From: Escherichia coli
GTDB lineage: Bacteria > Pseudomonadota > Gammaproteobacteria > Enterobacterales > Enterobacteriaceae
Assembly: GCF_024298765.1 (NCBI RefSeq)
Contig: NZ_CP101211.1
Strand: one strand, 5' to 3'
DNA: 64,000 bases
Part shown: positions 20,486 through 43,421 of the stretch, in pieces
Numbering within the stretch: position 1 is the stretch's first letter
Layout of the letters: every line of letters starts with the position of its first letter
The notes under the pieces: generated by a model
The model's input: the letters and a program-made list of their open reading frames with translations, nothing else
What the model was told of the DNA's origin: nothing
Databases searched by the model: none
Translations under genes and position numbers: made by a program

Positions 20486-20617
20486 TGATGATCCTTTTGT
20501 TTAGTTCCCCGATTCCGGGGGTGAGTGAATTAATTTAAATTTATATTTGTCTGGTTTAATTAGAACGTTTCCAGGCTATGCGTAAACAGGTAATGCAAAG
20601 GCTGTATCAACAGGATT

Positions 20618-20629
20618 AAAGTTACTTTT
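20618..20629. promoter_or_regulatory. AAAGTTACTTTT palindrome copy
   Basis: ~135 bp upstream of 20246..20485. Confidence 0.5.
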
Positions 20630-20734
20630 CTGGATGCAGCAACGCTTGGACATGATGTCCACATTACATCACGATCAAAGCTAAGTTTTTTTTGTATAAC
20701 CCCTTCATTTTCGTGTGTTTCGCGTTTCAGACGC

Positions 20735-23119: not shown

Positions 23120-23291
23120 ATATTTTCCTGAACCACGGCATATGCTGCATCACTGATATTTTTATTAGAACTTTAAAATAACTACAGCGCAACCATTTAG
23201 CGAAATTATATTAAATCAAAATCACGCAAATTTAATTCTTAAATAGATTTAAAATAAAAACCCATTGTAATTTAATCTCCCAGCACAGCTA

Positions 23292-23741: not shown

Positions 23742-23792
23742 GGCAGGCTCCAGGCCACCGGGGGAACCGGTGGCTACGGTTATCAGGCAGGC

Positions 23793-24584: not shown

Positions 24585-24650
24585 AGTTGACTCCTTGATT
24601 ATTTAATTAATGTATTTGATGAGAAGATCATAACAAACACACTACTACCA

Positions 24651-24666
24651 ACTAATAACCTGAAGT
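24651..24666 (-). promoter_or_regulatory. GGTTATTAGTT promoter-proximal element with TATGAT 17 bp downstream
   Basis: minus strand CTTCAGGTTATTAGTT-N17-TATGAT. Confidence 0.45.
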
Positions 24667-24754
24667 CGTTTTTTTAGAAAAAATATTAAGAAGAATATGA
24701 ACACCACCTCATCTTAAATTAATATTGTTCAGGATTAATATTCATTTTTGCAAA

Positions 24755-24780
24755 TAAAAACCGCCAGACGGCGGCTTTTA
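24755..24780. terminator. bidirectional intrinsic terminator
   Basis: stem CCGCC-agac-GGCGG flanked by A-run and T-run. Confidence 0.5.
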
Positions 24781-24810
24781 TAAAGAGGGAAATATCATTG
24801 GAAGCTGAAA

Positions 24811-25068
24811 TTACTTCACGGCAGGCCGACAAATTACGCGACTGCTGTGAGCTGAAGCGAAACTTGTAGAGGAAACTATAATCACCTTTTCTAAGTCGTC
24901 GGCACTGTCGGCAATATGATGCCGAAAAGCCTCCTCTGCATCACCAGGGGAATCGGCTTCGACCGGGTAGGCCTGATCATCATCATCAAACATAATGCGC
25001 CCGGAAATGAGATAAAGTCGGTTCAAATCTGGCGTCGCTGCGCTCGTGCTTCGTTCGTTCAGATTCAT
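24811..25068 (-). CDS. hypothetical acidic protein (85 aa)
   Basis: ORF. Confidence 0.4.
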   Translation of the reverse strand: MNLNERSTSAATPDLNRLYLISGRIMFDDDDQAYPVEADSPGDAEEAFRHHIADSADDLEKVIIVSSTSFASAHSSRVICRPAVK

Positions 25069-25133
25069 TTTTTCTCCGTCTGTTGCTCGTAAAAAGAATG
25101 ACGCCGGTTTAAAAGGCGTCGCCAGGGTTCAGG

Positions 25134-25460
25134 CTAAAACGCAGGGTTGCCATCGAGGAAGCTCATTGGCTGGCCAATAGCGGATGCCACCCTGAGAATT
25201 TCACCTGGTGTGGCATAGCGCAGCATTTCTGAGCGTCCAAATTTCTGATACTCATCTACTGACATCTTTCTCCACTCGGGGTGAGGATCTTTTCCGCACA
25301 GTGACCAGTTGCTTTCAGAGGAATCACGACGGAGAACGTACACATCAAGCGAGGCTGTAAGCCCGCTTCCATATCCCCGCTGCGCTACAATACGAACCTG
25401 AGAACCATCGTCGCGTTGCAACGTCTGGGTTAATTTCGTGATAGGATCCTGAGAATGCAT
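25134..25460 (-). CDS. hypothetical protein (108 aa)
   Basis: ORF; promoter-proximal element at 25511 and palindrome at 25666 upstream. Confidence 0.45.
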   Translation of the reverse strand: MHSQDPITKLTQTLQRDDGSQVRIVAQRGYGSGLTASLDVYVLRRDSSESNWSLCGKDPHPEWRKMSVDEYQKFGRSEMLRYATPGEILRVASAIGQPMSFLDGNPAF

Positions 25461-25510
25461 GCCATTTACCTCGTTTTTAAAAGAATTACCGTAAGTAAAT
25501 GATACCGAAT

Positions 25511-25524
25511 CGAGAATTCTGGCT
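25511..25524 (-). promoter_or_regulatory. CCTATTAGCC promoter-proximal element with TATCAT 16 bp downstream
   Basis: variant of the GGTTATTAGCC element. Confidence 0.4.
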
Positions 25525-25665
25525 AATAGGTCAGAAGAAAAAATATTGCATATTTTTGAAGTGTAGGATAATGATTAGAATAAAATGGCCTGAATAAATC
25601 GTTAGCTTTAACTCTGCTTATTTCAGAAAAACTCTGAATTAGTAGTGATGGAAAACGACGCGGTG

Positions 25666-25678
25666 AAAAGTAACTTTT
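25666..25678. promoter_or_regulatory. AAAAGTAACTTTT palindrome copy
   Basis: exact 13-bp palindrome. Confidence 0.5.
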
Positions 25679-26302
25679 ACACCGCAATTCAGAAAAAAGT
25701 TTCAGTTAGTCACATTACGAATAACCCGGCTTACTTTCGCATGTGCGTTCCCCTGCATGTTAAAGTAAAGCCCTCCGGGCAGACTCGTCGCCCACTTAAC
25801 GCCTCGCTCAGCCATACGCTTCGGTGTTTCCAGCCAACCACGAGGAATATTGCCCGGAACGTTACCGATAACCCGTCAAATGCATGCTGCTACCCGGATG
25901 CCGCCGGGAATATCGCATTTGGATTCAACAATATGCATGACCTCAGATAAAGCACCATGCCGCTGGACATGATCGCCAATGTGCAACTCGATAGGAGAAG
26001 CCATTTCTGAATCTGACTTCATATCTGTCCACCTTTAATTTAGAAACCGTCTAAATTACCAAATTAGTTAATCCAACAACATCTGTATCACAACCATCAA
26101 TTTGTTTTTGTTGGGTCTATATCGTAGAAACAAGTGAATAATGAATACACTCGTTAATACAGACAACCGGAAATGAATGACTACCTGATTATCTCAGCGG
26201 TATATGCTAAGCCGTTAATATTGCCATTCTCTGGTGGAACCACTGCTAAATGAATAAACCGTTTGTCGCTTCAAACCACTTTATCAAAACCGTTAACTTG
26301 CA

Positions 26303-27553
26303 TTAAGTCCGATACAGTTCGGCGAGCTCATCCAGCATGGGGTTACTCTTATATCCCGGTGCGGCCGTAAAAAGGTTTCGGGAAATCGCCAGCCACTCCA
26401 TGATTTTGTCCGTCGCCAGCCAACGTCTGCCAAGTCGCTCGGCTGCGATGGGGACTTTATGCAAGCCAGCGAAGGGATCTACAACAAGATCTCCCGGCTC
26501 TGTCAAAAACTCAATCAGAAACGCTGCAAGCCTGGTAGGAGACGTTGCACCGTGCAGCGGAAAACCGAGCTCGCGGGCAATGGAATGGCAAAATCTCGTA
26601 TCAGCGCAGCTATTGCCGTAAAACAAAGTATTCTTGGGGATCGTTCCTTCTGTTTTATTTCCAAAGGAACCGCTTTTAAGCTGGTACGCCCCATCACCAT
26701 AAAAGGTCGTGCGATTTTCACCGCCTGCTGCCTGCAATTTTAGATGCTGGTCTGAATGCGGTTGTAGTACACGTAAGTTGTTTGAACGAACCTTACTCGC
26801 ATCATTGGTAAACCACAGCACAGGCTCATACGATGAGCAGAGCTGCACCCGTTGCTTACATGCCCAGTGCGTTGGCGATGGGGGCTTACTGCGATTCACC
26901 CACTGAAGCCTGTCCATGAGCTCAAGCCCCAGCTTGTCACATAATGCCAGTGTCAGACGCTCCAGATACAGAGAACGTGAAGGCCTACCCCTATTAAAGC
27001 TATCTTGAGTGATATTCAATGCCACACTTGCGCCCGGTACAAGCTGTTTCACGATCGGTTCGAGGATACGCAGAAGCCAGTCAATATAAGCCTGCTCGCC
27101 ACGCCCCCCTCCGTGCCCGTAGTCTCTTGAATTTCGAAGGAGGTAAGGTGGCGAGGTCAGGCAAAGATGAATTTGCTCGGTGATATTGCTGAAGAAGGCA
27201 TAGGCGTTTCCAAAAACCGATGCCCCAAGAGAAGTTGAGAAACCGACAACACAGAGCTTTTCCCATGACTCATGCAGGTTTGTTTTCGTCTTAGAGGCGT
27301 ATCTCCAGACGCCCCGTTTTTCTGGAACGCGTTCGATGACCCCGGCCTGACGGAGAGTCTGCTGAAACCAGCGAACCTTATGTTTGACGCCGCTGGTTCT
27401 GGTTTTATCTGACCCAAATTCTTTCAGTTCGTGCAATTCGGCATCCGACATGCCAGTTTTACGCTGCACTTCGCGATAAAGCTCGTCGTTGGTCAACGGC
27501 GATTCGGAGGCAGCGTAGATATGCGCAATTAAGTCCGTATTAATCGTACTCAT
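26303..27553 (-). CDS. orphan DNA methyltransferase, N4/N6 beta-class (416 aa)
   Basis: TSPPY catalytic motif and C-terminal DPFAG...ATD SAM-binding motif; no adjacent restriction endonuclease recognised. Confidence 0.8.
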   Translation of the reverse strand: MSTINTDLIAHIYAASESPLTNDELYREVQRKTGMSDAELHELKEFGSDKTRTSGVKHKVRWFQQTLRQAGVIERVPEKRGVWRYASKTKTNLHESWEKLCVVGFSTSLGASVFGNAYAFFSNITEQIHLCLTSPPYLLRNSRDYGHGGGRGEQAYIDWLLRILEPIVKQLVPGASVALNITQDSFNRGRPSRSLYLERLTLALCDKLGLELMDRLQWVNRSKPPSPTHWACKQRVQLCSSYEPVLWFTNDASKVRSNNLRVLQPHSDQHLKLQAAGGENRTTFYGDGAYQLKSGSFGNKTEGTIPKNTLFYGNSCADTRFCHSIARELGFPLHGATSPTRLAAFLIEFLTEPGDLVVDPFAGLHKVPIAAERLGRRWLATDKIMEWLAISRNLFTAAPGYKSNPMLDELAELYRT

Positions 27554-27721
27554 CAGCCATCCTAATGGGGATACAGTTATTATATCGGCCTGATGGTTGG
27601 AAGTGAGATTACTAAATCAGACCGATCTGGTTTGTTGAAGACTTTGCCAAATCATGCAGCACAGCTGGGCTTGCACAGAGCGAGCCGGGCTCCTTTAGCG
27701 GAGACACCTTCGCAAGTTGGA

Positions 27722-28342
27722 TTAATCAGCCTCAAGATTCTGGAACTCAATGAGCTTTTGCTCACACTCCTCCCTGCCCCACGATCCCTGCCAGTCACAG
27801 ATGTCCCGGTACTTACTTTCCAGCTTATCCATCTGTGCGAGATTAGCTGTTGCGAAGTCTGTCCATATGTCATGCCAGCAAGCGTTGTACGTAACGCCAG
27901 CTGGTGGACAATACTCCATTGCATCAGCATTAATAATTTCAACGCGAAGATCGGTTGCAAACGAGGCTGCAACGAGGTTAATAACATCCTGTTCTTTTTC
28001 GATTACCGTGACATGGGTTACATCGTCTTTCTGAAGAATGGCGTGGAGCACCATACCAAGACCAAGACCATTAATGAGCACCCGCCCGGTGGCTCGCTCT
28101 ATAAAATCCTGGCAGGTTCGGATCTCCATCGGGGTATTGGACATCACCACATCCCAGCCGTTGGACAAGCGGCGATATCTACCGGGCGGGATAAACTCAT
28201 CTGTATTACCAGTACACTCGGCACGAAGGGCGAGGGTCAGCGCCTTATCTGTGGTAATTTCGAAAGTGTCCAGTTTCCAAGTTCCGGACTTGCCGTCTTT
28301 AACGGGTAAATCAGAAAAGCAGCTCTTCATCGAGGCAACCAA
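27722..28342 (-). CDS. hypothetical protein, possible Rossmann-fold methyltransferase-like (206 aa)
   Basis: VLINGLGLGMV resembles SAM-binding motif I; otherwise unassigned. Confidence 0.4.
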   Translation of the reverse strand: MVASMKSCFSDLPVKDGKSGTWKLDTFEITTDKALTLALRAECTGNTDEFIPPGRYRRLSNGWDVVMSNTPMEIRTCQDFIERATGRVLINGLGLGMVLHAILQKDDVTHVTVIEKEQDVINLVAASFATDLRVEIINADAMEYCPPAGVTYNACWHDIWTDFATANLAQMDKLESKYRDICDWQGSWGREECEQKLIEFQNLEAD

Positions 28343-28485
28343 AATTCCAGTAGTTTTGTTACGCTGAACCTACCACAAACCCGCTCTTAATGAAGGCATC
28401 AGGAGCGATAGCGATCTTTGAGGCATCGTTTAAAACAGCGGCATCCTGTAACAGACACCCGATATTTTTTTTAATGCCGCAGGTG

Positions 28486-28743
28486 TTAAAGGTAGCGTTG
28501 CAAAGTTGCAACATCTTCAGGGGCAACCTCCACGCAGCTCCTGACACTGTAGTGATTTTCGCCGTTGTAGTCATAAACCCCACCGTCTTCAAAACTCAGC
28601 TGTTCAACCTCGCCAGCACACTCGGAAATCAGTGCCGTCTGGCAAGCATTTTTCTCACAATCGCTGACGAGTATACGAACATAGCTTTTCTCATGGTCGC
28701 CGTTACGGTTCTGGATCTTTACGATAAAGTGTTTTTCAGACAT
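28486..28743 (-). CDS. hypothetical protein (85 aa)
   Basis: ORF with GGAGG RBS. Confidence 0.4.
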   Translation of the reverse strand: MSEKHFIVKIQNRNGDHEKSYVRILVSDCEKNACQTALISECAGEVEQLSFEDGGVYDYNGENHYSVRSCVEVAPEDVATLQRYL

Positions 28744-28807
28744 TTGTGCCTCCAGCTCAGGTTGAGGTTAATTTAGCGTTGCCCCGGTTCACCGGGGCAA
28801 GAATAAA

Positions 28808-29236
28808 TCAACCCTTAATGAAATTGTGCCCCCAGGTGTTAGGCTTAAATGCCTGCTCTTTGATATATGTTTTCATTACCTTGCAGGTTTTTTTCAGGGC
28901 TTTGGTATTGGCATCGGTTACTGGGATAAAATGGCGAGAATGACGGTTTTCCCGGTACTGCTTATCAGCGTTTGGGTCAATTGCTTCGCTTTGCAGGAGC
29001 CCTTCGTGCCTGCCAATTACTATTACGTAGTTCATTTCACCTGAAACACGATCCGTGAGTAATTGAAGGGAAATATCAGCTGCTCGCGTGGCCTGGCTTG
29101 CAGATATTTTTGCATGCAAGAAAGCCCCCTTTCTGAATTTGGCCGGAGTTAGCCCTGTAATATCCTCAACACTAAAATTAAGTGAGGAAAGAATTGAAAA
29201 TAAGTCGCAGCTAATGACTTCAGTATTATTAGGCAT
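28808..29236 (-). CDS. hypothetical protein (142 aa)
   Basis: ORF; inverted repeat operator-like element upstream. Confidence 0.45.
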   Translation of the reverse strand: MPNNTEVISCDLFSILSSLNFSVEDITGLTPAKFRKGAFLHAKISASQATRAADISLQLLTDRVSGEMNYVIVIGRHEGLLQSEAIDPNADKQYRENRHSRHFIPVTDANTKALKKTCKVMKTYIKEQAFKPNTWGHNFIKG

Positions 29237-29266
29237 TTTACCCGTCCCCGTCCATATTCATGATAC

Positions 29267-29295
29267 GGTAATGATACCAGGTCGATATCATTACC
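29267..29295. promoter_or_regulatory. inverted repeat GGTAATGATA-N9-TATCATTACC
   Basis: perfect 10-bp arms overlapping the putative promoter of 28808..29236. Confidence 0.4.
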
Positions 29296-29330
29296 TAATA
29301 ACTTGGTGAAAGAAAATCTGTAATTTTTAG

Positions 29331-29708
29331 TTAACTAAAATTAATAGTCTCAATACTGCTCAAGAATTCTTTTTTTACGTCCGGTGTAAAAGGTATACGT
29401 TCAATGTATTTATAAAGTGTCGCAAATGTTTTGGGTTCAATGTTTCGGGAGATAATGTCATCAATCGGATCTTCGAACATATTGATAAAGATATCGACAT
29501 GCTGCTCTCCGCTTTCTGATGCCTTTGAAAGAAGACTGACCACTTCAATGTAGCGATTATCCTGCTCTGCAATGAACAACCAGTGCCCTTCGTTAAAGGC
29601 GGGTGCAGCGCTGTAGCGTTTAACAACAATTTCTGAAAGATTATATCCTGCCTGATTCAGCAGATTATTAAAGTTGAGTTGAGTTGAAATCACGTCTAAC
29701 GTTTTCAT
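29331..29708 (-). CDS. hypothetical protein (125 aa)
   Basis: ORF with AAAGGAGG RBS. Confidence 0.45.
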   Translation of the reverse strand: MKTLDVISTQLNFNNLLNQAGYNLSEIVVKRYSAAPAFNEGHWLFIAEQDNRYIEVVSLLSKASESGEQHVDIFINMFEDPIDDIISRNIEPKTFATLYKYIERIPFTPDVKKEFLSSIETINFS

Positions 29709-29755
29709 AAAACCTCCTTTTCATCTGTACTTATTATACTGTTACCCAACCCCCA

Positions 29756-29770
29756 GCTAATAACCTCCCA
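29756..29770 (-). promoter_or_regulatory. GGTTATTAGCT promoter-proximal element with TATAAT downstream
   Basis: minus strand GGGAGGTTATTAGCT ... TATAAT ... AAAGGAGG ATG. Confidence 0.45.
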
Positions 29771-29877
29771 GCAAATTTTCAGAAAAAAAACACCGCCTTT
29801 TATTTAAGATTGAACACATCCTTTTTAAATACCAACAATGATTATGAAACCACAATGTAAGTGAAGCGCCATTATGG

Positions 29878-29890
29878 AAAAGTAACTTTT
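29878..29890. promoter_or_regulatory. AAAAGTAACTTTT palindrome copy
   Basis: exact palindrome ~170 bp upstream of 29331..29708. Confidence 0.5.
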
Positions 29891-30115
29891 GTGCAGCTCA
29901 TAAATTTTATTTATTAGTTACGTTCCTTTGTCTTGTGGTCGAAGTTCATCAGGCGAGGCCTAAGAAGAATATGTGTGGTTTCAGCCAATGCGGTGATCGG
30001 GCATTATAATTTGGTCGGGCTATTATACGTGGGTAAAGGTAGTGGTAGGGAGAGGATCAGGTTAAATTGCATTTTCCCGGTTGCCTTCCCTGGCCTACCG
30101 GTTTCAGGTCAGACG

Positions 30116-31297
30116 CTAAGACCAGCGGTAATACTTAAAGTAGTCCTCATTTACAGCCAAAAACTCCCTTAAACCGTTCATTAATCCCTTTTCAAACGCT
30201 GTAACGATAAACCGGTATCCGTCCAGTGTTTCAATGTAGTAGATCCCGCCCGGTGTTATTCCAACATGCAACACCTCGGCTGTCATCATAAACTGGCCTT
30301 CCGGAAAATCATGCGACAGGTATATAAAACCCGTCGTGGCCGGTGCGGGTGTGGCATTCACTAAGACACCGTTAAACTGCTGCCCGTGCCTCGCCGGTAC
30401 AAGCTCACTTCCCCTGGTTGACTTATCGAGCAGCCCCTTAACATCTTTTTGCTCTTTAGATGAGGTATAGCCCCGCACATCACTCCCATCACCTGGGCGA
30501 GAGCCGGTGCCGACATGTGCAAGACGACGGTAAGCGCTGCGCATATTGATGTGGCAGGATGCCCCGGCTCTACCCTGAAGCCTTACGCCAAAATCTTCGC
30601 AAAGTAATAAAATCTGACGTAGCTGGTGTTCATACACGGACGCAGAAAGTGAAAGGTTGAAACTGGAAAAGGTCAGTTCTAAAACCTTTTCCCGTTTGTC
30701 ATTGAAATGTGCTTCCAGCCTGATGATTGGCTTTTCCGACATTGCAAAAGCTTTGTCCGTTGCTCTGTACCGGCATTCATCTCCGAAACATTCTTCAACA
30801 ACGCTGGCTATAACCGTGTCGTGATCGCCATCTTCCGGAGCTGGCACAAAGATTTCAAATTGTGCCGGTGTCTCCGGCTCCAGCAGAACGGGATATAAAC
30901 GCGGAGAATTAAGCAATGCGCATTCAGAATTAATGAGCTTAACCCAGGCGCTTTTGTCGTCCGGATCCTTAAGCTGCTGTCCAAGGTTATCGCAAAAGTC
31001 TACTATCTGACGGGTATGCTCATCCGTGACTGCACAGATCAGGTTAAGACCATGCGTGGCCATACTCAATTCCCGGGTTCGGGACTGGGAATTGATCGAC
31101 CAGGGGTTAAGTGAAAGCGAAATAGGGCTTATGGAAGGGACGACCGTCTCATTCTGCAAATCTGTAAGCTGGCAGTTCGCAGTAGGCTTCGGGGAAAGGG
31201 TACTAAATATGTAACTTGCCTGTTGTTTAGTACTGGCCTGGATATAAAACATCGCGTCCATGCTTGTATCCCGGGATGAAATTGAAAATAGCTTCAT
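30116..31297 (-). CDS. hypothetical protein (393 aa) immediately downstream of HigB-like gene
   Basis: starts 9 bp after the higB-like stop; no HTH recognised. Confidence 0.5.
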   Translation of the reverse strand: MKLFSISSRDTSMDAMFYIQASTKQQASYIFSTLSPKPTANCQLTDLQNETVVPSISPISLSLNPWSINSQSRTRELSMATHGLNLICAVTDEHTRQIVDFCDNLGQQLKDPDDKSAWVKLINSECALLNSPRLYPVLLEPETPAQFEIFVPAPEDGDHDTVIASVVEECFGDECRYRATDKAFAMSEKPIIRLEAHFNDKREKVLELTFSSFNLSLSASVYEHQLRQILLLCEDFGVRLQGRAGASCHINMRSAYRRLAHVGTGSRPGDGSDVRGYTSSKEQKDVKGLLDKSTRGSELVPARHGQQFNGVLVNATPAPATTGFIYLSHDFPEGQFMMTAEVLHVGITPGGIYYIETLDGYRFIVTAFEKGLMNGLREFLAVNEDYFKYYRWS

Positions 31298-31305
31298 TTT
31301 TAACC

Positions 31306-31602
31306 TTAATGGATGAGCGATTTATAGTCATGTGCTGACAAATGGACATTATGTGCGCCATCATTCCATTCAAAGAATAATCGATACTTAGAGTTTACTC
31401 GAATGGAGGAATAACGGTTTGACGTCATTCTTAAGCGTTCATAACGCAAGCTGTTGGATAATAACTCCCGCTCACTCTGGACATTATCCAGCGTTTCGAG
31501 TCGACACAGAATCGCGTTAATAATTTCAGAAGGAATACCTGCCGTTGTTTTTCCATTACGGAAGAACTTTTCAAGCCGTCTGTCTTTAAATGAATGGATC
31601 AT
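31306..31602 (-). CDS. HigB-family (plasmid killer) toxin-like protein (98 aa)
   Basis: FKDRRLEKFF...IPSEI...SIRVNSKYRLFFEW.DG aligns with Rts1 HigB (FKDKWLEQFY...SIRVNKQYRLIFKW.DG). Confidence 0.7.
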   Translation of the reverse strand: MIHSFKDRRLEKFFRNGKTTAGIPSEIINAILCRLETLDNVQSERELLSNSLRYERLRMTSNRYSSIRVNSKYRLFFEWNDGAHNVHLSAHDYKSLIH

Positions 31603-31651
31603 AGTTCCTCCGTAATAATTGACCTTAAAATTAAATTAAAAGGGCTTTGAA

Positions 31652-32122
31652 TTAATGAATCCCTAAAATGCGGGCGGCGACTGCCAGCTGCTTATCACTT
31701 AACTGACGCTGGTGGGTTAAAGAAGACTTAAGGCTTTCCAGAAAATTATTACTGCTGGATTGCTGGGTGATTGCATCAACCATTTTTTGATGAGATCTGC
31801 ACCATGCATTGAACGCAGAGTTGTGGGCGTTTTCAGTCCTCAAACGCTCGTTTTGCAAGGATGCTGACACTTTGCGGGCAGCTTGAGCATTAATGCGGTA
31901 CAGCGCATTCAGCGTGTAAGCAGTGCGGGTCGTTTCGAGGCTGTAACCCGTGGCTTTACAAGCCATACAGCGACTTCTATAAAAATGCTTACGCTCTCCC
32001 CGACCATTGCATTTATCGCAAAGAATACGAAAAGTATATTCCGCAGTACCTTTTACAGAATCAACACAGCGGATTTTTGCGCTGGAGATTTCAATTCCAC
32101 TGCGATCATAATATTTGGTCAT
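31652..32122 (-). CDS. zinc-ribbon protein (156 aa)
   Basis: CDKC...CMAC cysteine pairs. Confidence 0.45.
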   Translation of the reverse strand: MTKYYDRSGIEISSAKIRCVDSVKGTAEYTFRILCDKCNGRGERKHFYRSRCMACKATGYSLETTRTAYTLNALYRINAQAARKVSASLQNERLRTENAHNSAFNAWCRSHQKMVDAITQQSSSNNFLESLKSSLTHQRQLSDKQLAVAARILGIH

Positions 32123-32174
32123 AATGTGATTCCTCCGGTTAGTTCTGGAGTAATCATGACAGAATGAATCTACT

Positions 32175-32189
32175 GGCTAATAACCTGAG
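32175..32189 (-). promoter_or_regulatory. GGTTATTAGCC promoter-proximal element
   Basis: minus strand CTCAGGTTATTAGCC ~60 bp upstream of 31652..32122 start. Confidence 0.45.
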
Positions 32190-32556
32190 AGTAAATATTT
32201 TAAAAAAACATTGAGAGAGGGTCTGCAAATTTATACACGAAGGATTCAAATATAATTTTGTTTAAAAAATTAAGAGCATTCTGAAGTAAAAGTGCATCAA
32301 AAAGCATTCATGGATAAATCATGTACTGGTGCCAGCCATTTAAACGCGGGCATTGTTCCGGAGTGATTAAACGGTTTAGCATCATAGATTAAAACCAAAA
32401 GGAAGGCGTCCTTCCCGTCTCGGGAATATTACTTTCCCGTTTGCAATTTAAGAGCCACTTAATGAGAAAGTAATAATTAAGTCATGCTCAACTCTACATA
32501 TTACATTGAGGATGGCGTAACAGGGTACGGCATACTACCGCACCCTTCTGAAGAGC

Positions 32557-34947
32557 TTATGTTTGAGGGAATTCTATAGCAAATGTGGCCGTGCCAGATT
32601 GACCACTTACAGCGGGAGTAACGGGATACGTGCGCTCTTCACCATTACCAAGATCCAGTGACAGCGATTTAGTTTCACCAGGCTGGACCGTAACTCCGGC
32701 AACCGTAACGCCGAACTGGGCATTTTTCTGAACAGTCAGGGTTCCGTTTAACTGTCCGGTAATGATAGAACCGTCCTGACGCCGCAACACACTGGTTCGG
32801 ATGATGGCCAGCGGCGTGTTGTCCGTTGCTTTCAGTGCTACGGCTGTGGCCAGCGTCTTGAGATTATCCAGCATAATCAGATTCGCAGGCTGGTAGGTAA
32901 AATTAAGCGTTTTAGTGGTCCGGTTACCTGATTCGTCAATAGCCAGTGCCTCCAGATGATACATCTGTCCCGATTCGTCAGTGTTGGGGAAGATTCTGGG
33001 GTATTCCGGAATAAAGACATCCTTGGATAACGGCGTGAATGCCAGGGTGACCTTTTCAGAGTTAGGTCCACCAGCGAGCTGAAGCGATGTCAGGGAAGCA
33101 TCCCCAGAGGCATCAGTAACGCTTATGCGAAGGTTCTCAAGCCCTTTAACCAGTTTTCCTTCTGCGTCTGCGCCATTAAAACTGAACGCGATAACCGGAA
33201 GCGTTGAGTCAATTTTCAGCGGTGCATTAAGCGTTTTGGTTCCGGTGTTTCCAACAAGATCCGTGGCAGAGACGCTAACCACCGTATAATCCCCGTCCGG
33301 TAGACCAGCGTATGAGAAGGTGGCGTTTTTGGTTTTATAATCGCTTTCACTGACGGTCACAGGCTTCAGCGTGAAAGGTTCCCCCCGGGCATTTTTAAGG
33401 GTGGCTTCGAAAACTTTGGTATCCCAGTAGCTGATGTTCCAGGCGTTGACGCGATCATTATCGGTGGCCGTCATAGTGATTGTCTTGGAGGCCTTGTTTA
33501 CCTGAGCGACATTAACCACCGGTGGGTTGTTATCCCAGATAACCGTAAAATTACCAGCAAGCGCATCGAATATGCTGTCACCATCTTTTCCCGAGTAAAG
33601 GTGCAGATACTCAAATCCTTTGTCACTGGTGTAGTTGAAGTTAACCGTCATCTCGCATGAACTTTGTCCGATAGGTATAGTGCAGAACCAGGCTGCATTT
33701 TTTACCGTTCTGAACTTTTGCACGTATGGTCGGGGTTCAGCGGTTACCTTTATGCGGCTAATGGTGGCGGTTTTAACGCTGATTGAGGCCTGAGTTAACC
33801 ACTCACTGGTATCACTCCGGTACATCTCTTTAGCCACTATCTTCGGGGCTATTTCCATCGCCGGGGCTGGAGTGAAGTTGAGGGAGTTATGATGAATTCG
33901 TCTTACTCCTCCTGCCAGAGTCTGGAATTCATGATAAGTATCCCCCACATTGGGATATATGTATTTGAAAGTATAAATATTATAAGTGCTATCGGACGTC
34001 TGGAAATTCGAGTCCGCCCAGCCATATTTGGAACCGTTAACAGCAGTAAAGTCACTTTTTTTCCTTAATACCCGTACGGAAATAGGGTTCTGGAAGACGG
34101 TCATGCCAGACTGATAAGTGACCCATGATCCGGTAGTGGCGTCCTGCACCTGGATGATATCGTCAGGCTTAACCCGATCAATTACGCTTCGGCGGCTTAG
34201 TTCGATCCTGTTTCCCGCTTTGTCATAAAGGTAGATCCCCACTTTATATTCAGAGCGGTTTTCCGGTGCCAGGGCATTGCTGCTTGCGTCGGCGACTTGA
34301 ACGGTTACGCTACCTTCCACTGTATTAATTTCCGCTGGCTTTTTACGCTCCACTCCAGCGGCATCGGTTATGAAATATTCAGCATTAGCAAGCCCGGAAC
34401 CTTTATCACTCAGTCCATTAAAGACCAGTGCCTGGACGCTGGCGTACTGCATACCGGCTGGTACTGAAGTGAAGATCGCTTCGCTGCCAAAGTTCCACCC
34501 GTTTCTCGTATAACTTATGGTACCCGTTGCCGGAGGCGTTCGGTCAATTGCAAGCGGGTAATCCTGCCGGGAGACCTCCTTCCCTTGCAAGTCGGTAATC
34601 ACCTCTCTGAGGGTGAAGCTATCTTCTCCCATCGCTGGTACGGTCAGAGTCTTGCCGTAATAATCAAAGCCTGTCGAAGATGTGGTACGGTCATCTACGG
34701 TAACCAGGCTGCTTTTCGTGCTCCAGATGAGGCTCCCGTCACTTTTCAGCAGACTGAGCGTAATATAACGGTCCAGACCGGAAATAACGGCAACGTCAAA
34801 GCTCGTTACCGGATTAATCCATACGGATGCAGGCGATACGGTCTTTTTAACGTTCAGGGTATCTTTAAAGCTGAATTCTGCGATTTCAGCGGAAGCTCCT
34901 GCGCTGAAACCTGCAAATGCAATAAGCAGGGCTAGTTTGATTTTCAT
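32557..34947 (-). CDS. secreted Ig-like repeat protein, paralog 1 (~796 aa)
   Basis: Sec signal peptide MKIKLALLIAFAGFSAGASA; repeated D-x-T-P-P domain starts; paralog of 40500..42920 and 48582..51038; start chosen at the internal Met with AGGAGA RBS. Confidence 0.7.
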   Translation of the reverse strand: MKIKLALLIAFAGFSAGASAEIAEFSFKDTLNVKKTVSPASVWINPVTSFDVAVISGLDRYITLSLLKSDGSLIWSTKSSLVTVDDRTTSSTGFDYYGKTLTVPAMGEDSFTLREVITDLQGKEVSRQDYPLAIDRTPPATGTISYTRNGWNFGSEAIFTSVPAGMQYASVQALVFNGLSDKGSGLANAEYFITDAAGVERKKPAEINTVEGSVTVQVADASSNALAPENRSEYKVGIYLYDKAGNRIELSRRSVIDRVKPDDIIQVQDATTGSWVTYQSGMTVFQNPISVRVLRKKSDFTAVNGSKYGWADSNFQTSDSTYNIYTFKYIYPNVGDTYHEFQTLAGGVRRIHHNSLNFTPAPAMEIAPKIVAKEMYRSDTSEWLTQASISVKTATISRIKVTAEPRPYVQKFRTVKNAAWFCTIPIGQSSCEMTVNFNYTSDKGFEYLHLYSGKDGDSIFDALAGNFTVIWDNNPPVVNVAQVNKASKTITMTATDNDRVNAWNISYWDTKVFEATLKNARGEPFTLKPVTVSESDYKTKNATFSYAGLPDGDYTVVSVSATDLVGNTGTKTLNAPLKIDSTLPVIAFSFNGADAEGKLVKGLENLRISVTDASGDASLTSLQLAGGPNSEKVTLAFTPLSKDVFIPEYPRIFPNTDESGQMYHLEALAIDESGNRTTKTLNFTYQPANLIMLDNLKTLATAVALKATDNTPLAIIRTSVLRRQDGSIITGQLNGTLTVQKNAQFGVTVAGVTVQPGETKSLSLDLGNGEERTYPVTPAVSGQSGTATFAIEFPQT

Positions 34948-35081
34948 GGGTTGTCTCCTGATCAGGTTCCCCATGATACTTTTTCAGTGTTCGAGATCTT
35001 TTCGGGAAAATAGCTAATTTTAATGTTTTTCTTTTCTGCCCGGCGGGACTTGTTTTGTTTACGTAAATGCAAAAATACAAG

Positions 35082-35095
35082 AAAAGTTACTTTTT
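35082..35095. promoter_or_regulatory. AAAAGTTACTTTTT palindrome copy followed by TGATAG
   Basis: ~110 bp upstream of paralog 1; extended match to the copy at 51259. Confidence 0.5.
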
Positions 35096-35350
35096 GATAG
35101 GGTTAAAATTAGGTTTTCCCAATTTCCAGAAGCAAGCGAAAGCAGAACTAGCTTAATAGCCATTAAAAACGCCATGCCTATTGATAAATAAAGCTCATTA
35201 CATTTAATGATTAGAGCATTTAAAACTGAATTAGCGAAAGAATTTCGGTTAGCTTTTTATTGCATGAGTGAAACAGTATTAATAATCCGGAGCCATCAGA
35301 ACGTACTCTAAAGACTCCGGTATACAGATATCTTGCCAGTAAAAATGGCC

Positions 35351-35602
35351 TTACTCCTCATCATCCCCCAGCGCTTTTTTGATGGCGCGGCGGCGGGCTG
35401 CATCACCTACACGATATCCGACTGAATATACGTCATTCAACCGGCGCAGAATAAGATTTATTTCCTCATCCTGAATGTAGGCAGGTAAACACAGAACTAC
35501 GTCGCCATCTTCATCATAGACTCGAACAACTTCCTTCTGCCCATCTCGCTCGCGAATAATCTGGACATGCTGAACCCTGGTGTAATCTGGGATTACGCTC
35601 AT
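35351..35602 (-). CDS. hypothetical protein (83 aa)
   Basis: ORF. Confidence 0.4.
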   Translation of the reverse strand: MSVIPDYTRVQHVQIIRERDGQKEVVRVYDEDGDVVLCLPAYIQDEEINLILRRLNDVYSVGYRVGDAARRRAIKKALGDDEE

Positions 35603-35809
35603 TTTAAATATCTCTCTTTAATTGTTGTTACCAGTTAGCTATAAGCCGGTTTATTCAGGTACTCAGTGTTCTGCACAGCAATCGCCTGTTCGTGGATCAT
35701 TAACACTGCTGGGCGGGCTTTAAGGCGCTTGCTGGTGAGAAAACGCTTCACTTCTTTAAGTTCGCTGCCAGCCGACAGCATATTGAAGACATGCTGTTTG
35801 AGACTGTTG

Positions 35810-36067
35810 TTATTTTTGGCCACTTGTTTCTCCATCATCTTTGTACATGGTTGTGTCGGGCTGGCCTGCCAGATCACACACGTTATCCATATGCTTTTGG
35901 ACCCAGTCTGTTAGACCCAGGCCTTCGGCCTTTGCCTGATTGACGTAACGCAGTTTCCGATCAGGGGTAACCCGCATCTGTAGTTGTGCCGTCGCTGGAA
36001 CCGCCTCTTTCAGGGCGTTAAGGCCCCTCTGATCACGGGCCTGATTTGATGGTTTACCGTTTGGCAT
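35810..36067 (-). CDS. putative ribbon-helix-helix DNA-binding protein (85 aa)
   Basis: paralog of 9046..9402 (QLQMRVTPDRKLRYVNQAKAEGLGLTDWV). Confidence 0.4.
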   Translation of the reverse strand: MPNGKPSNQARDQRGLNALKEAVPATAQLQMRVTPDRKLRYVNQAKAEGLGLTDWVQKHMDNVCDLAGQPDTTMYKDDGETSGQK

Positions 36068-36491
36068 CTGAGGTATCGCTCTCCCGGCGAGCGGTGGACG
36101 ACTCTAATTCTTTTGCGATTGCTTTATCTACGGCATCCAGCTGCATAGCAAACTTGATTTCAAGCGAACAGCGTAATGCCTTCAGGGCGCGTTCTTTGGT
36201 GCTGTATTGTGGTATGCCGTTCTGGCTACCATTCATGCCTCGCATGCGGCGGGAGGTTGCATCGACAACCTCTCCCTCTTCCCGTGTGCCGTGAACCGTA
36301 GTTCCGCTCCATGTCGGATAAACAGTGCCAGTGGCGGTGTTGAAGCTCCAGCCGTTTTGGTATTCCCCCGAGACCTCTGGTACGGGCATATCGCGTTCAA
36401 CGCTATAGTCAGACCAGCGTAAAGCGCGGTTTATTCTGGCCTGTGCCACCAGCTCATCATAGGCGGCTTGTTCTTTTTTATTCATCGCCAT
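36054..36491 (-). CDS. hypothetical protein (145 aa)
   Basis: ORF. Confidence 0.45.
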   Translation of the reverse strand: MAMNKKEQAAYDELVAQARINRALRWSDYSVERDMPVPEVSGEYQNGWSFNTATGTVYPTWSGTTVHGTREEGEVVDATSRRMRGMNGSQNGIPQYSTKERALKALRCSLEIKFAMQLDAVDKAIAKELESSTARRESDTSDAKR

Positions 36492-36594
36492 TTAGGGCAA
36501 TCTCCTTAAAGGGGAATTAGGTGTTATATCGGTACGTAAGTGCTTTTCAGGCCTAATCTCTGACAAGGCCTGATGTGCCAGACTGCCGTTGCAT

Positions 36595-37119
36595 TCACCG
36601 TTTTATGGCGGTTGACTGAGCCTCATTAAGAGCCGCAATTAGTTCAGGCGAAGTCGGCTCCAGATTTTTGGAAGCGTTCAGCAGCTCCTTAAGTGAAGAG
36701 ATTTCCTTTGGCTCTACCTGGTTTGCTTCAGGAGCCGTTTTTTGAACTTCATCCAGAGTACGCTGTGCACCGTTATCCAGCACCAGCACACCCCCAGCAC
36801 GAATTTCTGAAATGGTGCGCACCGTATACATCATTTTATCCCAGACACGGCTACCAACCTCGATCCCGGAATCAGCTACTTTTTTTTCATTATGCTTTTG
36901 AAAAATTTCTTCTAACCATGTGGTGAAGCGCTTTCCAAAAGTATTGGCGGCTAAAGAAGTGCAGGAATAAACCTGTTCGACCTGTTTTGTTCCATTTTTA
37001 TCAGTGAATGTAATGAGACCGATTCGTCCACTGTTAACAGTGTAAAAGCGAGGTTGAAAGCCAGCTTTGAGAAGGTTTTCAATAGCTGAAAAAAAATCTT
37101 TTTTGAGCATCGGTTTCAA
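36595..37119 (-). CDS. hypothetical protein (174 aa)
   Basis: ORF. Confidence 0.5.
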   Translation of the reverse strand: MKPMLKKDFFSAIENLLKAGFQPRFYTVNSGRIGLITFTDKNGTKQVEQVYSCTSLAANTFGKRFTTWLEEIFQKHNEKKVADSGIEVGSRVWDKMMYTVRTISEIRAGGVLVLDNGAQRTLDEVQKTAPEANQVEPKEISSLKELLNASKNLEPTSPELIAALNEAQSTAIKR

Positions 37120-37439
37120 GATGGTTTTCCTTTTATGCCCGGTGCCGCCGGGACGGTGGCATTAAATATACGCCATGTAAGTAAATTAATTTTTACCCAT
37201 TTGATTGTCAATACAAACAAAAAATAAACCATGTTTATTATTTTACCAGCGATGCTATTTTAAAGTCCGTCTAAAATAAAAAACCAAAAAGTTAAATTTG
37301 AAGCCATCCTTCCTAAATTCATTTCTTGCGCATATTAGCCCCTGCTTTAAGTATATAATTTTTGAAAAAGTTGTCTGGAGGTTATTAGCTCGTGCATCTG
37401 GATTGTTAATATAAAGCCAACACAGAAAAGGAAAACAAA

Positions 37440-38204
37440 ATGTATAAATTAGTATCTCCTCGTGAACTGACTGAGATTATTACCGGTTTACTGCTTAAAC
37501 CTGAACTCCTTGGTGAGCTGGACTCACCAGAAAAGCATCGGATGTTTATGGCAGATTTAGGCCGGGTGGTGGCAGAACATTGTGGAGGTCTGGTAAACAG
37601 CGTCGTCTTGCCAGGAGCTGAAGTTACAGTGCCGGATGGGTTACCGCTTAACGGCCAGCCAGTACGTTATCTCGGAATCAAAGAGAGCATCCCTCACCTC
37701 CTTGTAGAGCCTGATGCTTCCTTACCTTCGCTCGCTAAAAACGTCTGGATGTATGCAGATCCTGAAGGCTGGAAAGAACATTTTGGAGCTGAGGAAGACT
37801 GCCTTACTCATGAAATGATGCAGCTGTTCCGTAAAGGTATCCAGGCTCTTCAGAAGGAGCATGATACCCCTGAAATTAGCCTCACACTTCAGGACTGGCG
37901 CCTGGAGGAGGAAACACTGAGAGAAGAGGACAGTCAGGCCTATCAGGTCAGCGTTACCGGCCAACATAACATCCACTGTGAAGTTGTTAACAAGGAAGGT
38001 AACCCCTGTTTTGGTGTCATGTTCGAAATCGATCAGGGTGTGCCTGCCTTACACATCAACACCGGCGGGGATATGTTGCTCCACATTCATTGCGCCCATA
38101 ACGGACTCGTTCTGACCCCTGATGCAAGCGGTCAGCGATTTGAGAAGGCTCCCGTTGACCGCTTCGCTTATAACAGCCCATCCCTGCTGTTGTCTGCCGA
38201 CTAA
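37440..38204 (+). CDS. hypothetical protein (254 aa)
   Basis: first gene of plus-strand block. Confidence 0.5.
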   Translation: MYKLVSPRELTEIITGLLLKPELLGELDSPEKHRMFMADLGRVVAEHCGGLVNSVVLPGAEVTVPDGLPLNGQPVRYLGIKESIPHLLVEPDASLPSLAKNVWMYADPEGWKEHFGAEEDCLTHEMMQLFRKGIQALQKEHDTPEISLTLQDWRLEEETLREEDSQAYQVSVTGQHNIHCEVVNKEGNPCFGVMFEIDQGVPALHINTGGDMLLHIHCAHNGLVLTPDASGQRFEKAPVDRFAYNSPSLLLSAD

Positions 38205-43377: not shown

Positions 43378-43421
43378 TGTTGTGGTCAAGTTTTTTTGGA
43401 CACGCCGATCAGATGGTAGGG

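What the first reader, a model, noticed from the sequence alone, without database searches (positions are those of the whole stretch)
30116..32122. HigB-like toxin paired with a 393-aa non-HTH protein instead of a canonical HigA
31306..31602 aligns well with Rts1-type HigB (FKD..LE.F...IP..I...L..L..LD......L.......E.L.......SIRVN..YRL.F.W.DG). In higBA modules the toxin gene is followed by a ~100-aa HTH antitoxin. Here the gene starting 9 bp downstream encodes a 393-aa protein with no recognisable HTH, and the gene 49 bp upstream is a 156-aa zinc-ribbon protein. Either this is a toxin with a new type of partner or antitoxin, or an orphan or domesticated HigB.
Basis: partly seen in the sequence, partly recalled or inferred. 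Interest (0 to 1): 0.6.

Follow-up and report, generated by a model that had tools for sequence, protein, structure and literature searches.

The report
HigB-like toxin cassette on IncHI plasmids
A HigB-type toxin gene with no normal antitoxin sits in a conserved three-gene cassette on IncHI1/IncHI2 resistance plasmids. Natural transposon knock-outs show the large downstream protein is not needed to keep the toxin in check, so the small upstream zinc-ribbon protein is the likelier antidote.

Summary
Window 31602..31306 (-) encodes a 98-aa HigB-like protein (Pfam PF05015, E=6e-18). A 393-aa protein with no recognisable domain or fold starts 8 nt downstream. A 156-aa CxxCxGxG zinc-ribbon protein ends 49 nt upstream. 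No HTH ORF overlaps in any frame.

The locus is IncHI2 backbone, near-identical in over 1000 sequenced plasmids. The trio is kept as a unit in IncHI1 and more distant IncHI-like elements (HigB 62-85% identical, partners 31-66%).

At least seven independent natural disruptions of the 393-aa gene coexist with an intact HigB gene: codons 57, 122, ~129, 207, ~220, 249 and 380, by IS66-family, IS26, IS110-family, IS5, IS21 and IS1 elements. HigB was identical to the window's in the five IncHI2 cases compared. A 59%-identical HigB relative has no 393-aa homologue at all.

In PLSDB the 393-aa gene is partly covered in 46 records, higB in 2, and the zinc-ribbon gene in 0 of 1025.

Best reading: the zinc-ribbon protein is a non-HTH antitoxin or regulator, and the 393-aa protein is a dispensable, translationally coupled accessory. 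An orphan, low-toxicity HigB remains a serious rival. Nothing was tested experimentally. This is a new variant of a known kind, of moderate interest.

The parts
31652..32122 (-). 156-aa zinc-ribbon protein ('ZnR'), the candidate non-HTH antitoxin or regulator. It has an N-terminal three-stranded sheet with a CxxCxGxG x2 zinc knuckle (C35, C38, C52, C55), a long helix (aa 79-110) and a C-terminal helical bundle.
31603..31651 (-). 49-nt AT-rich spacer between ZnR and the toxin gene. It ends in the toxin's own GGAGG Shine-Dalgarno, 5 nt before the ATG.
   Evidence: Sequence read directly. The spacer length varies from 36 to 63 nt among orthologous loci.
31306..31602 (-). 98-aa HigB-like (RelE/ParE superfamily) toxin gene.
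   Evidence: Pfam PF05015 E=6.2e-18. Rts1 HigB structures E=7.5e-6. Invariant R53, R68, N70, R74, H84, D92, Y93 in 15 family members. dN/dS 0-0.09.
30116..31297 (-). 393-aa protein of unknown fold, labelled 'flavin reductase' in RefSeq. It is translationally coupled to the toxin gene (8-nt gap, with the AAGG Shine-Dalgarno overlapping the toxin's stop codon). It is dispensable in nature.
   Evidence: ORF. No family match. AF2 model with pLDDT 71. No fold neighbours. Natural IS knock-outs. dN/dS ~0.15.
30935..31072 (-). First copy of the internal repeat in the 393-aa protein (aa 76-121; a beta-beta-alpha unit).
   Evidence: BLASTP of aa 76-121 against aa 207-252, E=1e-6 for the single comparison. 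The AF2 model shows four beta-beta-alpha units (E2-21/H24-34, E75-90/H92-105, E132-154/H159-171, E204-221/H223-236).
30542..30679 (-). Second copy of the internal repeat (aa 207-252).
30119..30415 (-). C-terminal domain of the 393-aa protein (aa ~295-393), its most conserved part (PARHGxxFNGVxxNATP...GQF..T.EVV...YIETxDGxRF...N..Y...RW). It is homologous to stand-alone 110-145-aa proteins of mobile elements.
   Evidence: Invariant columns. Stand-alone homologues with E from 2e-11 to 2e-4. No Pfam match for any of the 23 members.
32400..32416 (-). Terminator-like hairpin plus T-run after the upstream Ig-like protein gene. It marks the upstream limit of the cassette's transcription unit.
   Evidence: a consensus scan only. 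No sigma-70-like promoter was found on the minus strand between this hairpin and the ZnR start.

Best explanation
This is a three-gene cassette (zinc-ribbon protein, HigB-like toxin, 393-aa protein) that is conserved as a unit in IncHI1 and IncHI2 plasmids and in more distant IncHI-like elements.

The HigB-like protein is most likely a still-functional ribosome-dependent mRNA endonuclease. This is inferred from family membership and from strong purifying selection on its basic and Asp-Tyr active-site residues.

The 393-aa protein encoded 8 nt downstream is not its essential antitoxin. It is a dispensable accessory protein co-expressed with the toxin. It is built from duplicated beta-beta-alpha units plus a C-terminal domain that also circulates as small stand-alone proteins in mobile-element accessory gene arrays.

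The most likely neutraliser or regulator of the toxin is the upstream 156-aa zinc-ribbon protein. That would make an antitoxin-then-toxin arrangement with a non-HTH, zinc-binding antitoxin, the reverse of the canonical higBA order.

Shown: the gene content, the conservation, and the dispensability of the 393-aa gene when higB is intact. Inferred: toxicity of HigB, neutralisation by ZnR, and any role for the 393-aa protein.
For: (1) The trio is kept together in IncHI2, IncHI1 and more distant IncHI-like contigs even where the flanking genes are rearranged. HigB is the most conserved member: 62-85% identity, against 36-66% for ZnR and 31-53% for the 393-aa protein.

(2) At least seven independent natural disruptions of the 393-aa gene coexist with intact HigB and ZnR ORFs:
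- IS66-family at codon 57, seen in two SRA runs
- IS26 at codon 122
- IS110-family at codon ~129
- truncation at codon 207 in an Enterobacter hormaechei chromosome
- IS5 at codon ~220
- IS21 at codon 249
- IS1 at codon 380

(3) Counts in PLSDB of records whose best match covers less than 80% of each segment:
- ZnR: 0 of 1025
- higB: 2 of 1082
- 393-aa gene, N-terminal half: 11 of 1028
- 393-aa gene, C-terminal half: 35 of 1025
higB itself is hit by IS elements at five or more independent positions while ZnR stays intact: ISVsa5 at codon ~85 in an IncHI1 lineage (ZnR verified intact), IS1 at codon 53 (ZnR verified intact), and IS26 or other IS junctions at codons ~40, ~72 and ~75 (ZnR not checked). 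Toxin disruptions are tolerated and disruptions of one neighbour are never seen, which is the pattern expected of an antitoxin.

(4) The most divergent HigB relative (59% identity, L051) has no 393-aa homologue and no ORF after higB. It does have two tandem ZnR paralogues on the same strand, 1.1-2.3 kb upstream.

(5) HigB catalytic competence is plausible. D92 and Y93 align with Rts1 D90 and Y91, which are critical there (PMC5027501). R53, R68, R74 and H84 are invariant. dN/dS is 0-0.09.
Against: There is no direct evidence that ZnR binds or neutralises HigB.
- The ZnR-higB spacer is 36-63 nt and variable, looser than a typical antitoxin-toxin junction. The higB-393 junction is always 8-15 nt.
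- In L051 the ZnR paralogues are separated from higB by two other genes.
- The disruption counts are not independent events, because plasmids are clonally related, and they detect only large interruptions, not point mutations.
- ZnR might be protected from disruption for a reason unrelated to the toxin.
- Two Rts1 catalytic residues are not conserved (H54 aligns with E55, H92 with K94), so the toxin could be weak.
- No disruption upstream of codon 57 of the 393-aa gene was seen, so a short N-terminal antitoxin segment cannot be excluded.
Confidence: 0.42

Rival explanations
1. Orphan or domesticated HigB. The 98-aa protein is not toxic enough, or not expressed enough, to need a dedicated antitoxin. 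This could be because two of the four Rts1 catalytic residues are replaced, or because the operon is silenced on IncHI plasmids. On this view ZnR and the 393-aa protein are functionally separate neighbours, or partners in some non-TA function such as regulating plasmid or host mRNAs.
For: - H54 aligns with E55 and H92 with K94, relative to Rts1 HigB (residue importance from PMC5027501).
- Loss of the 393-aa gene is tolerated.
- In L051 higB stands alone, with no adjacent partner ORF.
- Neither neighbour resembles any known antitoxin.
- No PADLOC defence-system match.
Against: - HigB is the most strongly conserved of the three genes (dN/dS 0-0.09; 62-85% identity).
- The HDYK C-terminal motif is nearly invariant and three arginines are invariant, which argues for a retained enzymatic function.
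- ZnR was never interrupted in 1025 plasmids, while higB and the 393-aa gene are.
- A ZnR relative accompanies higB in every locus examined that extends upstream of it.
Confidence: 0.3
2. The 393-aa protein is the antitoxin after all, acting through a short N-terminal segment (about 57 residues or fewer, the first beta-beta-alpha unit). The gene order would then be the canonical higB-then-antitoxin order. The rest of the protein would carry another function that can be lost.
For: - The 8-15-nt junction is conserved, and the Shine-Dalgarno overlaps the toxin's stop codon.
- The toxin-first order is typical of PF05015 modules (PMC11980606, Table 1).
- Every natural disruption found keeps at least the first 57 codons.
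- M1, K2, Y18, A21, Q26 and P54 are invariant.
Against: - L051 has a 59%-identical HigB with the HDYK motif intact but no 393-aa homologue and no ORF of 50 aa or more downstream.
- With about 8 events, the absence of hits in the first 14% of the gene is expected by chance about 30% of the time (own calculation: 0.86^8).
- A 57-aa stub followed by an IS-derived tail would have to remain stable and sufficient.
- In PLSDB the 393-aa gene is partly covered in 46 records, against 0 for ZnR.
Confidence: 0.15
3. Tripartite conditional system. ZnR is the antitoxin, HigB the effector, and the 393-aa protein a sensor or modulator that releases or redirects the toxin, for example on phage infection or on entry into a new host. 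Loss of the sensor would then be harmless in routine growth.
For: - The third gene is dispensable but under purifying selection (dN/dS ~0.15; knock-outs).
- Its C-terminal domain family occurs in arrays of small acidic or hypothetical genes on mobile elements.
- The cassette lies among orphan methyltransferases and many small same-strand genes on the plasmid backbone.
Against: This is purely contextual. There is no match to any PADLOC model, no known sensor domain, and the fold is unknown. No phenotype data exist.
Confidence: 0.1

Closest known systems
higBA of plasmid Rts1 (Proteus vulgaris), the PF05015 'HigB-like' type II toxin-antitoxin module
   Same: The toxin belongs to the same Pfam family (E=6e-18) and aligns over 84-93 residues with the solved HigB. 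Asp-Tyr of the C-terminal active-site motif and Arg73 (here R74) are conserved. It is plasmid-borne, and the toxin gene precedes a tightly coupled downstream gene.
   Different: There is no HigA: no HTH-XRE protein downstream or in any frame. The downstream gene is 393 aa, of unknown fold, and dispensable. His54 and His92 are replaced by Glu and Lys. A zinc-ribbon gene lies upstream.
mqsRA (E. coli), a RelE-fold toxin with a zinc-binding antitoxin
   Same: It is a precedent for a RelE-superfamily toxin neutralised by an antitoxin whose toxin-binding domain is a four-Cys zinc-binding module (background knowledge, not tested here). ZnR likewise has four conserved Cys residues in an N-terminal beta/zinc module followed by a helical domain.
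Tripartite toxin-antitoxin modules: M. tuberculosis HigB1-HigA1-SecB-like chaperone (TAC) and paaR-paaA-parE
   Same: A three-gene operon built around a RelE/ParE-superfamily toxin.
   Different: The third components there are a SecB-like chaperone, or an extra HTH regulator. Neither ZnR nor the 393-aa protein matches these. In TAC, loss of the chaperone activates the toxin. Here, loss of the 393-aa gene is tolerated.
Flavin reductase family (the RefSeq/PGAP product name for the 393-aa protein)
   Same: Nothing detectable apart from the inherited database label.

Membership tests
HigB-like toxin family (Pfam PF05015, RelE/ParE superfamily) | Significant match to the family profile over most of its length | tested here: met
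   PF05015 i-E=6.2e-18, residues 4-88 of 98, model positions 2-88 of 91. PHROG 3066 E=9e-18. Rts1 HigB PDB chains E=7.5e-6.
HigB-like toxin family (Pfam PF05015, RelE/ParE superfamily) | Catalytic residues shown to be critical in Rts1 HigB (His54, Asp90, Tyr91, His92; PMC5027501) | tested here: inconclusive
   By the HMMER alignment, Asp90 aligns with D92 and Tyr91 with Y93; both are invariant in 15 relatives. His54 aligns with E55 and His92 with K94. R53, R68, R74 and H84 are invariant. Two of four residues are identical, and the other two are replaced by residues that could still serve in acid/base catalysis.
HigB-like toxin family (Pfam PF05015, RelE/ParE superfamily) | Growth inhibition by ribosome-dependent mRNA cleavage | not testable with these tools
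   This needs expression and cleavage assays.
higBA-type type II toxin-antitoxin module | Toxin gene immediately followed by a ~100-aa HTH-XRE HigA antitoxin | tested here: not met
   The downstream gene encodes a 393-aa protein with no HTH. No alternative-frame ORF has any Pfam match.
higBA-type type II toxin-antitoxin module | The adjacent partner is indispensable while the toxin is intact | tested here: not met
   This applies to the 393-aa partner. At least seven independent natural disruptions coexist with intact higB. For ZnR the criterion is consistent with the data but unproven: 0 of 1025 records interrupted.
MqsA-type zinc-binding antitoxin | Homology to MqsA (N-terminal zinc-binding domain plus C-terminal XRE HTH) | tested here: not met
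Flavin reductase family (database label of the 393-aa protein) | Match to a flavin-reductase profile or to the split-barrel FMN-binding fold | tested here: not met
Known anti-phage defence systems (PADLOC-DB 2.0) | Any of the three proteins matches a defence-system model | tested here: not met
   0 families for all three proteins at E<=0.1.
Type I/III toxin-antitoxin (RNA antitoxin) | A known antitoxin RNA family, or a tandem-repeat RNA next to the toxin gene | tested here: not met
   The Rfam E-value scan of 29500-32700 gave only one chance-level hit. There is no tandem-repeat array near the toxin gene.

The most novel reading that the evidence does not exclude
The 156-aa zinc-ribbon protein founds a new class of non-HTH, zinc-binding antitoxin for HigB-family toxins, encoded upstream of the toxin. 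The 393-aa protein is a toxin-coupled accessory, such as a sensor, modulator or anti-defence effector. It carries a previously undescribed domain that also circulates as stand-alone small proteins on mobile elements. Together they would form a new tripartite module conserved across the IncHI1/IncHI2 plasmids that spread mcr-1 and other resistance genes.
Probability: 0.3. Interest if true: 0.7.

Novelty: new variant of a known kind. Interest (0 to 1): 0.5.

Why it matters
IncHI1 and IncHI2 plasmids are major vehicles of multidrug and colistin resistance. This cassette was found in over 1000 sequenced IncHI2 plasmids, yet none of its three proteins appears to have been studied in the literature searched. 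One is mislabelled 'flavin reductase'.

If the zinc-ribbon protein is the antitoxin, it would be a new antitoxin architecture for a well-studied toxin family. It could also be an addiction module that contributes to the persistence of these plasmids.

The natural IS knock-outs already narrow the experiment to a simple three-construct toxicity and rescue test. The C-terminal domain of the 393-aa protein also defines an uncharacterised domain family of mobile elements.

Tried and rejected
- **Hidden HTH antitoxin in another frame.** Twelve alternative ORFs were scanned against Pfam and none matched.
- **RNA antitoxin.** Rfam and tandem-repeat scans were negative.
- **Known defence system.** PADLOC was negative.
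- **'Flavin reductase' label.** No profile or fold support.
- **Fold assignment.**
  - Both are uninformative.
- **More distant genomic contexts.**
  - The genome-contig scan with the ZnR alignment returned only IncHI-type copies: four at 97% identity and one at 66%.
  - Two viral-contig scans found nothing.
  - The metagenome scan with the HigB alignment gave one truly divergent context, L051.
- **Stand-alone homologues of the 393-aa C-terminal domain as possible antitoxins.** Their neighbours are not HigB-like.
- **Probable assembly errors, not counted as natural disruptions.** These are frameshifted variants from low-coverage or fragmented assemblies: L009 (coverage 1.9), L015, L048 (coverage 2.2), and P0023, P0027, P0030, P0032, P0073-75 and P0084.
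- **Complex prediction by fused chains.** Not attempted, because the structure tool returns no inter-residue error map, so an interface could not have been judged.
- **Full list of disrupted records.** I could not list every PLSDB record with a disrupted gene. Only counts and a spread sample are returned, so the joint state of the three genes is known only for the loci I fetched.
Full report
**What is there.** On the minus strand of the window lie three co-directional genes:
- 32122..31652, 156 aa
- 31602..31306, 98 aa
- 31297..30116, 393 aa

The gaps are 49 nt and 8 nt. Each gene has its own Shine-Dalgarno sequence. That of the 393-aa gene (AAGG) overlaps the stop codon of the 98-aa gene, so translational coupling is plausible (read).

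The 98-aa protein is a bona fide HigB-family member: Pfam PF05015 i-E=6.2e-18, PHROG 3066 'toxin of TA system' E=9e-18, and Rts1 HigB crystal-structure chains E=7.5e-6.

The 393-aa protein matches nothing in Pfam, NCBIfam, PADLOC, PHROGs or PDB sequences.

The 156-aa protein ('ZnR') has two CxxCxGxG motifs, with a weak DnaJ zinc-finger match (E=1e-3).

Twelve alternative-frame ORFs of 40 aa or more have no Pfam match. There is no Rfam family or tandem-repeat array that could be an RNA antitoxin.

**Where it comes from.** The region is 100% identical to the backbone of IncHI2 plasmids of Salmonella, E. coli, Enterobacter and other genera. It matches 1089 PLSDB records, 981 of which cover at least 80% of the 2.4-kb query. 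It is also found in 260 of 5426 complete E. coli genomes, almost always on plasmids.

RefSeq annotates the three genes as 'hypothetical protein', 'type II toxin-antitoxin system RelE/ParE family toxin' and 'flavin reductase (family protein)'. RefSeq gives the last one a start 12 codons downstream of the conserved Met1-Lys2. The literature library holds no study of this cassette. A 2025 survey of the RelE/ParE superfamily lists PF05015 modules as toxin-then-antitoxin with HigA-type partners, and I found no mention there of a zinc or comparable partner (PMC11980606).

**Conservation.** The large protein has only about 20 homologue clusters among 5.8 billion proteins, all 391-394 aa when complete.

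In every complete context examined, the same trio occurs in the same order: IncHI2, IncHI1 (pSY3626_190k_tetX) and more distant IncHI-like contigs. This holds even where the flanking genes are rearranged (L005).

| Comparison with the window's proteins | ZnR | HigB | 393-aa protein | Source |
|---|---|---|---|---|
| Amino-acid identity | 36-66% | 62-85% | 31-53% | |
| dN/dS between close alleles | 0.13 | 0-0.09 | ~0.15 | |

All three genes therefore encode functional proteins under purifying selection, and the toxin is the most constrained.

Within 15 HigB relatives, R53, R68, N70, R74, H84, D92 and Y93 are invariant, and the C-terminal H-D-Y-K is nearly so. D92 and Y93 align with Asp90 and Tyr91 of Rts1 HigB. 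Those two residues, with His54 and His92, are critical for Rts1 activity (PMC5027501). His54 and His92 correspond here to E55 and K94. Catalytic competence is thus plausible but not assured.

**Anatomy of the partners.**

*The 393-aa protein.*
- AlphaFold on a 15-sequence alignment gives a medium-confidence model (pLDDT 71, pTM 0.63).
- The model has four beta-beta-alpha units, followed by a poorly modelled linker (aa 244-274) and a C-terminal domain.
- Two of the units are a recognisable internal duplication: aa 76-121 against aa 207-252, E=1e-6 for that single comparison.
- The model shows no HTH and no flavin-reductase fold.

*Its C-terminal domain.* The C-terminal ~100 residues are the most conserved part. 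They are homologous to stand-alone 110-145-aa proteins (E from 2e-11 to 2e-4 in an exhaustive profile search), none of which has a Pfam domain. In the three contexts I could read, these small proteins sit in same-strand arrays of small, often very acidic, hypothetical genes. Those arrays include an SprT-like metallopeptidase motif and an Xre/MbcA/ParS-type antitoxin domain, but not HigB.

*ZnR.*
- It models well (pLDDT 84.6): a three-stranded sheet carrying the zinc knuckle, a long helix (aa 79-110) and a helical bundle.
- It is not MqsA-like (hhalign probability 0.4%).
- It matches PHROG 4046, of unknown function (E=3.9e-12).

**Which neighbour, if any, is the antitoxin? Nature has done part of the experiment.**

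*(a) The 393-aa gene is repeatedly knocked out while higB stays intact.* I verified these cases at the sequence level:

| Event | Position in the 393-aa gene | Where |
|---|---|---|
| 2.5-kb IS66-family insertion | codon 57 | two unrelated sequencing runs |
| IS26 insertion | codon 122 | — |
| IS110-family insertion | codon ~129 | a metagenome contig carrying the ~63%-identity allele |
| Truncation | codon 207 | an Enterobacter hormaechei chromosome |
| IS5 insertion | codon ~220 | pUWI-H17.1 |
| IS21 insertion | codon 249 | pR18.1297_279k |
| IS1 insertion | codon 380 | pHZ010 |

In all of these the 98-aa ORF is complete, and ZnR is intact. In the five IncHI2 cases compared (IS66-family, IS26, IS5, IS21, IS1), HigB is 100% identical to the window's protein. 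Further IS1 and IS26 junctions at codon ~351 exist as chimeric ORFs (P0028 and P0029).

*(b) Interruption counts in PLSDB.* These are records whose best match covers less than 80% of each segment.

| Segment | Length | Records below 80% / records matched |
|---|---|---|
| 393-aa gene, codons 1-197 | 591 nt | 11 / 1028 |
| 393-aa gene, codons 198-393 | 591 nt | 35 / 1025 |
| higB | 297 nt | 2 / 1082 |
| ZnR | 471 nt | 0 / 1025 |

*(c) higB itself is hit independently at least five times.* ZnR was verified intact in the first two cases and not checked in the other three.
- ISVsa5 replaces its last 13 codons, including the D-Y-K motif, in an IncHI1 sublineage seen in 53 sample blocks. ZnR and the 393-aa gene are both intact there.
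- IS1 cuts it at codon 53 in pEC17-AB02384.
- IS26 or other IS junctions occur at codons ~40, ~72 and ~75.

*(d) The most divergent HigB relative lacks the 393-aa gene.* It was recovered from a 96-kb metagenome contig (L051; 59% identity, HDYK motif intact). It has no 393-aa homologue and no ORF of 50 aa or more after it. It does have two tandem ZnR paralogues on the same strand, 1.1-2.3 kb upstream.

**Interpretation.** The 393-aa protein cannot be an essential antitoxin in the usual sense. The pattern is that toxin and third gene are hit freely while ZnR is never hit, which is what an addiction module with ZnR as the antidote would produce.

A rough rate can be taken from ~10 events in the 1182-nt gene and 5 in the 297-nt higB. 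At that rate, 4-8 hits would be expected in the 471-nt ZnR gene, and none is seen. This is my own calculation. The events were not placed on a phylogeny, so it is indicative only.

I therefore favour ZnR as a non-HTH antitoxin or regulator encoded upstream of the toxin, with the 393-aa protein as a co-expressed, dispensable accessory.

**Caveats and rivals.**
- Nothing shows that ZnR binds HigB.
- The ZnR-higB spacer is long and variable (36-63 nt), whereas the higB-393 junction is always 8-15 nt.
- In L051 two other genes separate ZnR from higB.
- ZnR could be protected from disruption for unrelated reasons.

*Orphan or weakly toxic HigB.* This remains quite possible (I give it 0.3), because two Rts1 catalytic histidines are replaced. 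The extreme conservation of the protein argues against loss of function.

*Short N-terminal antitoxin segment.* The first 57 or fewer residues of the 393-aa protein could suffice as an antitoxin. The knock-outs do not exclude this, because none lies upstream of codon 57. With about 8 events, that absence is expected by chance roughly 30% of the time. L051 argues against this rival. I give it 0.15.

*Sensor or modulator role.* A role for the 393-aa protein in a conditional, defence- or establishment-related system is compatible with its dispensability and genomic company. It has no positive evidence (0.1).

**Comparison with known systems.** The toxin is a member of the PF05015 HigB-like family. 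The module is not a higBA module, because the defining HTH HigA is absent, and it does not match MqsRA, TAC or paaR-paaA-parE. It is best described as a new variant of a type II-like toxin cassette. The RefSeq name 'flavin reductase' is unsupported.

**Verdict.** Interest is moderate (0.5). The cassette is widespread, on clinically important plasmids, unstudied and cheaply testable. All functional statements here are inference from sequence and natural variation.

Noticed in passing
window 30116-31297 (and RefSeq WP_000339752.1 in L001): RefSeq/PGAP names the 393-aa protein 'flavin reductase (family protein)' and starts it at Met13 (381 aa). No profile or fold evidence supports the name, and Met1-Lys2 is invariant across homologues, so both the label and the start look wrong.
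   Followed up: yes
window 30119-30415; loci L006 3989-4411, L007 646-1038, L008 2531-2950: The C-terminal ~100 aa of the 393-aa protein define an undescribed domain family (consensus G..FDGV...A....G..FGS..F.DG..I.TSEIV.VG.....YIET..GSRYLI.......N..YF...WS). It occurs as stand-alone 110-145-aa proteins with no Pfam match. These lie in arrays of small, often highly acidic genes that look like mobile-element accessory or anti-defence islands.
   Followed up: partly
L017-L019 (IncHI1-type plasmids), 4001-5572: An ISVsa5 (IS4-family) insertion replaces the last 13 codons of the HigB-like gene, removing the conserved H-D-Y-K motif, and separates it from the intact 393-aa gene. This allele (P0064) is indexed in 53 sample blocks, so a probably toxin-dead version is circulating widely.
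   Followed up: partly
L051 677-3297 (metagenome contig Ga0302173_10000011): The most divergent relative has two tandem ZnR paralogues (163 and 162 aa), then 84-aa and 218-aa unknown proteins, then a solitary HigB-like gene. These are followed by a TraR/DksA-type zinc-finger gene and a 562-aa protein. There is no 393-aa homologue.
   Followed up: partly
window 32557-34974 (-) and neighbouring Ig-like genes (L001 16669 onward; L030 4959-7415): Several ~800-aa paralogous proteins with DUF4165 and Big_3 Ig-like domains flank the cassette. Ig-like proteins of IncHI plasmids (RSP of R27) are reported to be exported and required for conjugation (PMC6764697). The relationship of these paralogues to RSP was not examined.
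   Followed up: no
window 26303-27553 (-) and about 12,000-30,000: An orphan N6/N4 DNA methyltransferase with an Mrr_N-like N-terminus lies here. Nearby are a 794-aa PAPS-reductase-family protein, an HNH protein and a long run of small same-strand hypothetical genes. No cognate restriction genes are annotated nearby.
   Followed up: no
window 30116-30706 versus 30707-31602: Between the two main IncHI2 alleles, synonymous divergence jumps from ~0.05-0.14 (higB and the N-terminal half of the 393-aa gene) to ~0.26-0.28 (its C-terminal half). Nucleotide identity falls from 97.5% to 92.4%. This suggests a recombination breakpoint inside the gene.
   Followed up: partly
window 31808-31852 (ZnR residues 91-105): The R478-type ZnR allele differs from the window's by N91D, N98S, N101S and N105T (plus L34V in some). 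The four changes cluster on the long helix. In two metagenome loci there are 4 nucleotide differences in ZnR, all non-synonymous, and no synonymous change. The number is too small to be significant.
   Followed up: partly
window about 15,200-17,000; 34,900-37,800; 43,200-45,500; 51,600-56,700: Relative to plasmid pD90-1, the window carries extra segments of roughly 0.8, 1.9, 1.4 and 3.1 kb (offset changes between 200-nt probes). These are probably IS or accessory insertions and were not identified.
   Followed up: no
window 31652-32122: ZnR matches PHROG 4046 (a phage protein family of unknown function, E=3.9e-12). It matches the zinc-finger region of Q-like antiterminators weakly (phrog_127, E=0.0024). 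The latter is a lead for a nucleic-acid or RNA-polymerase-binding role.
   Followed up: no
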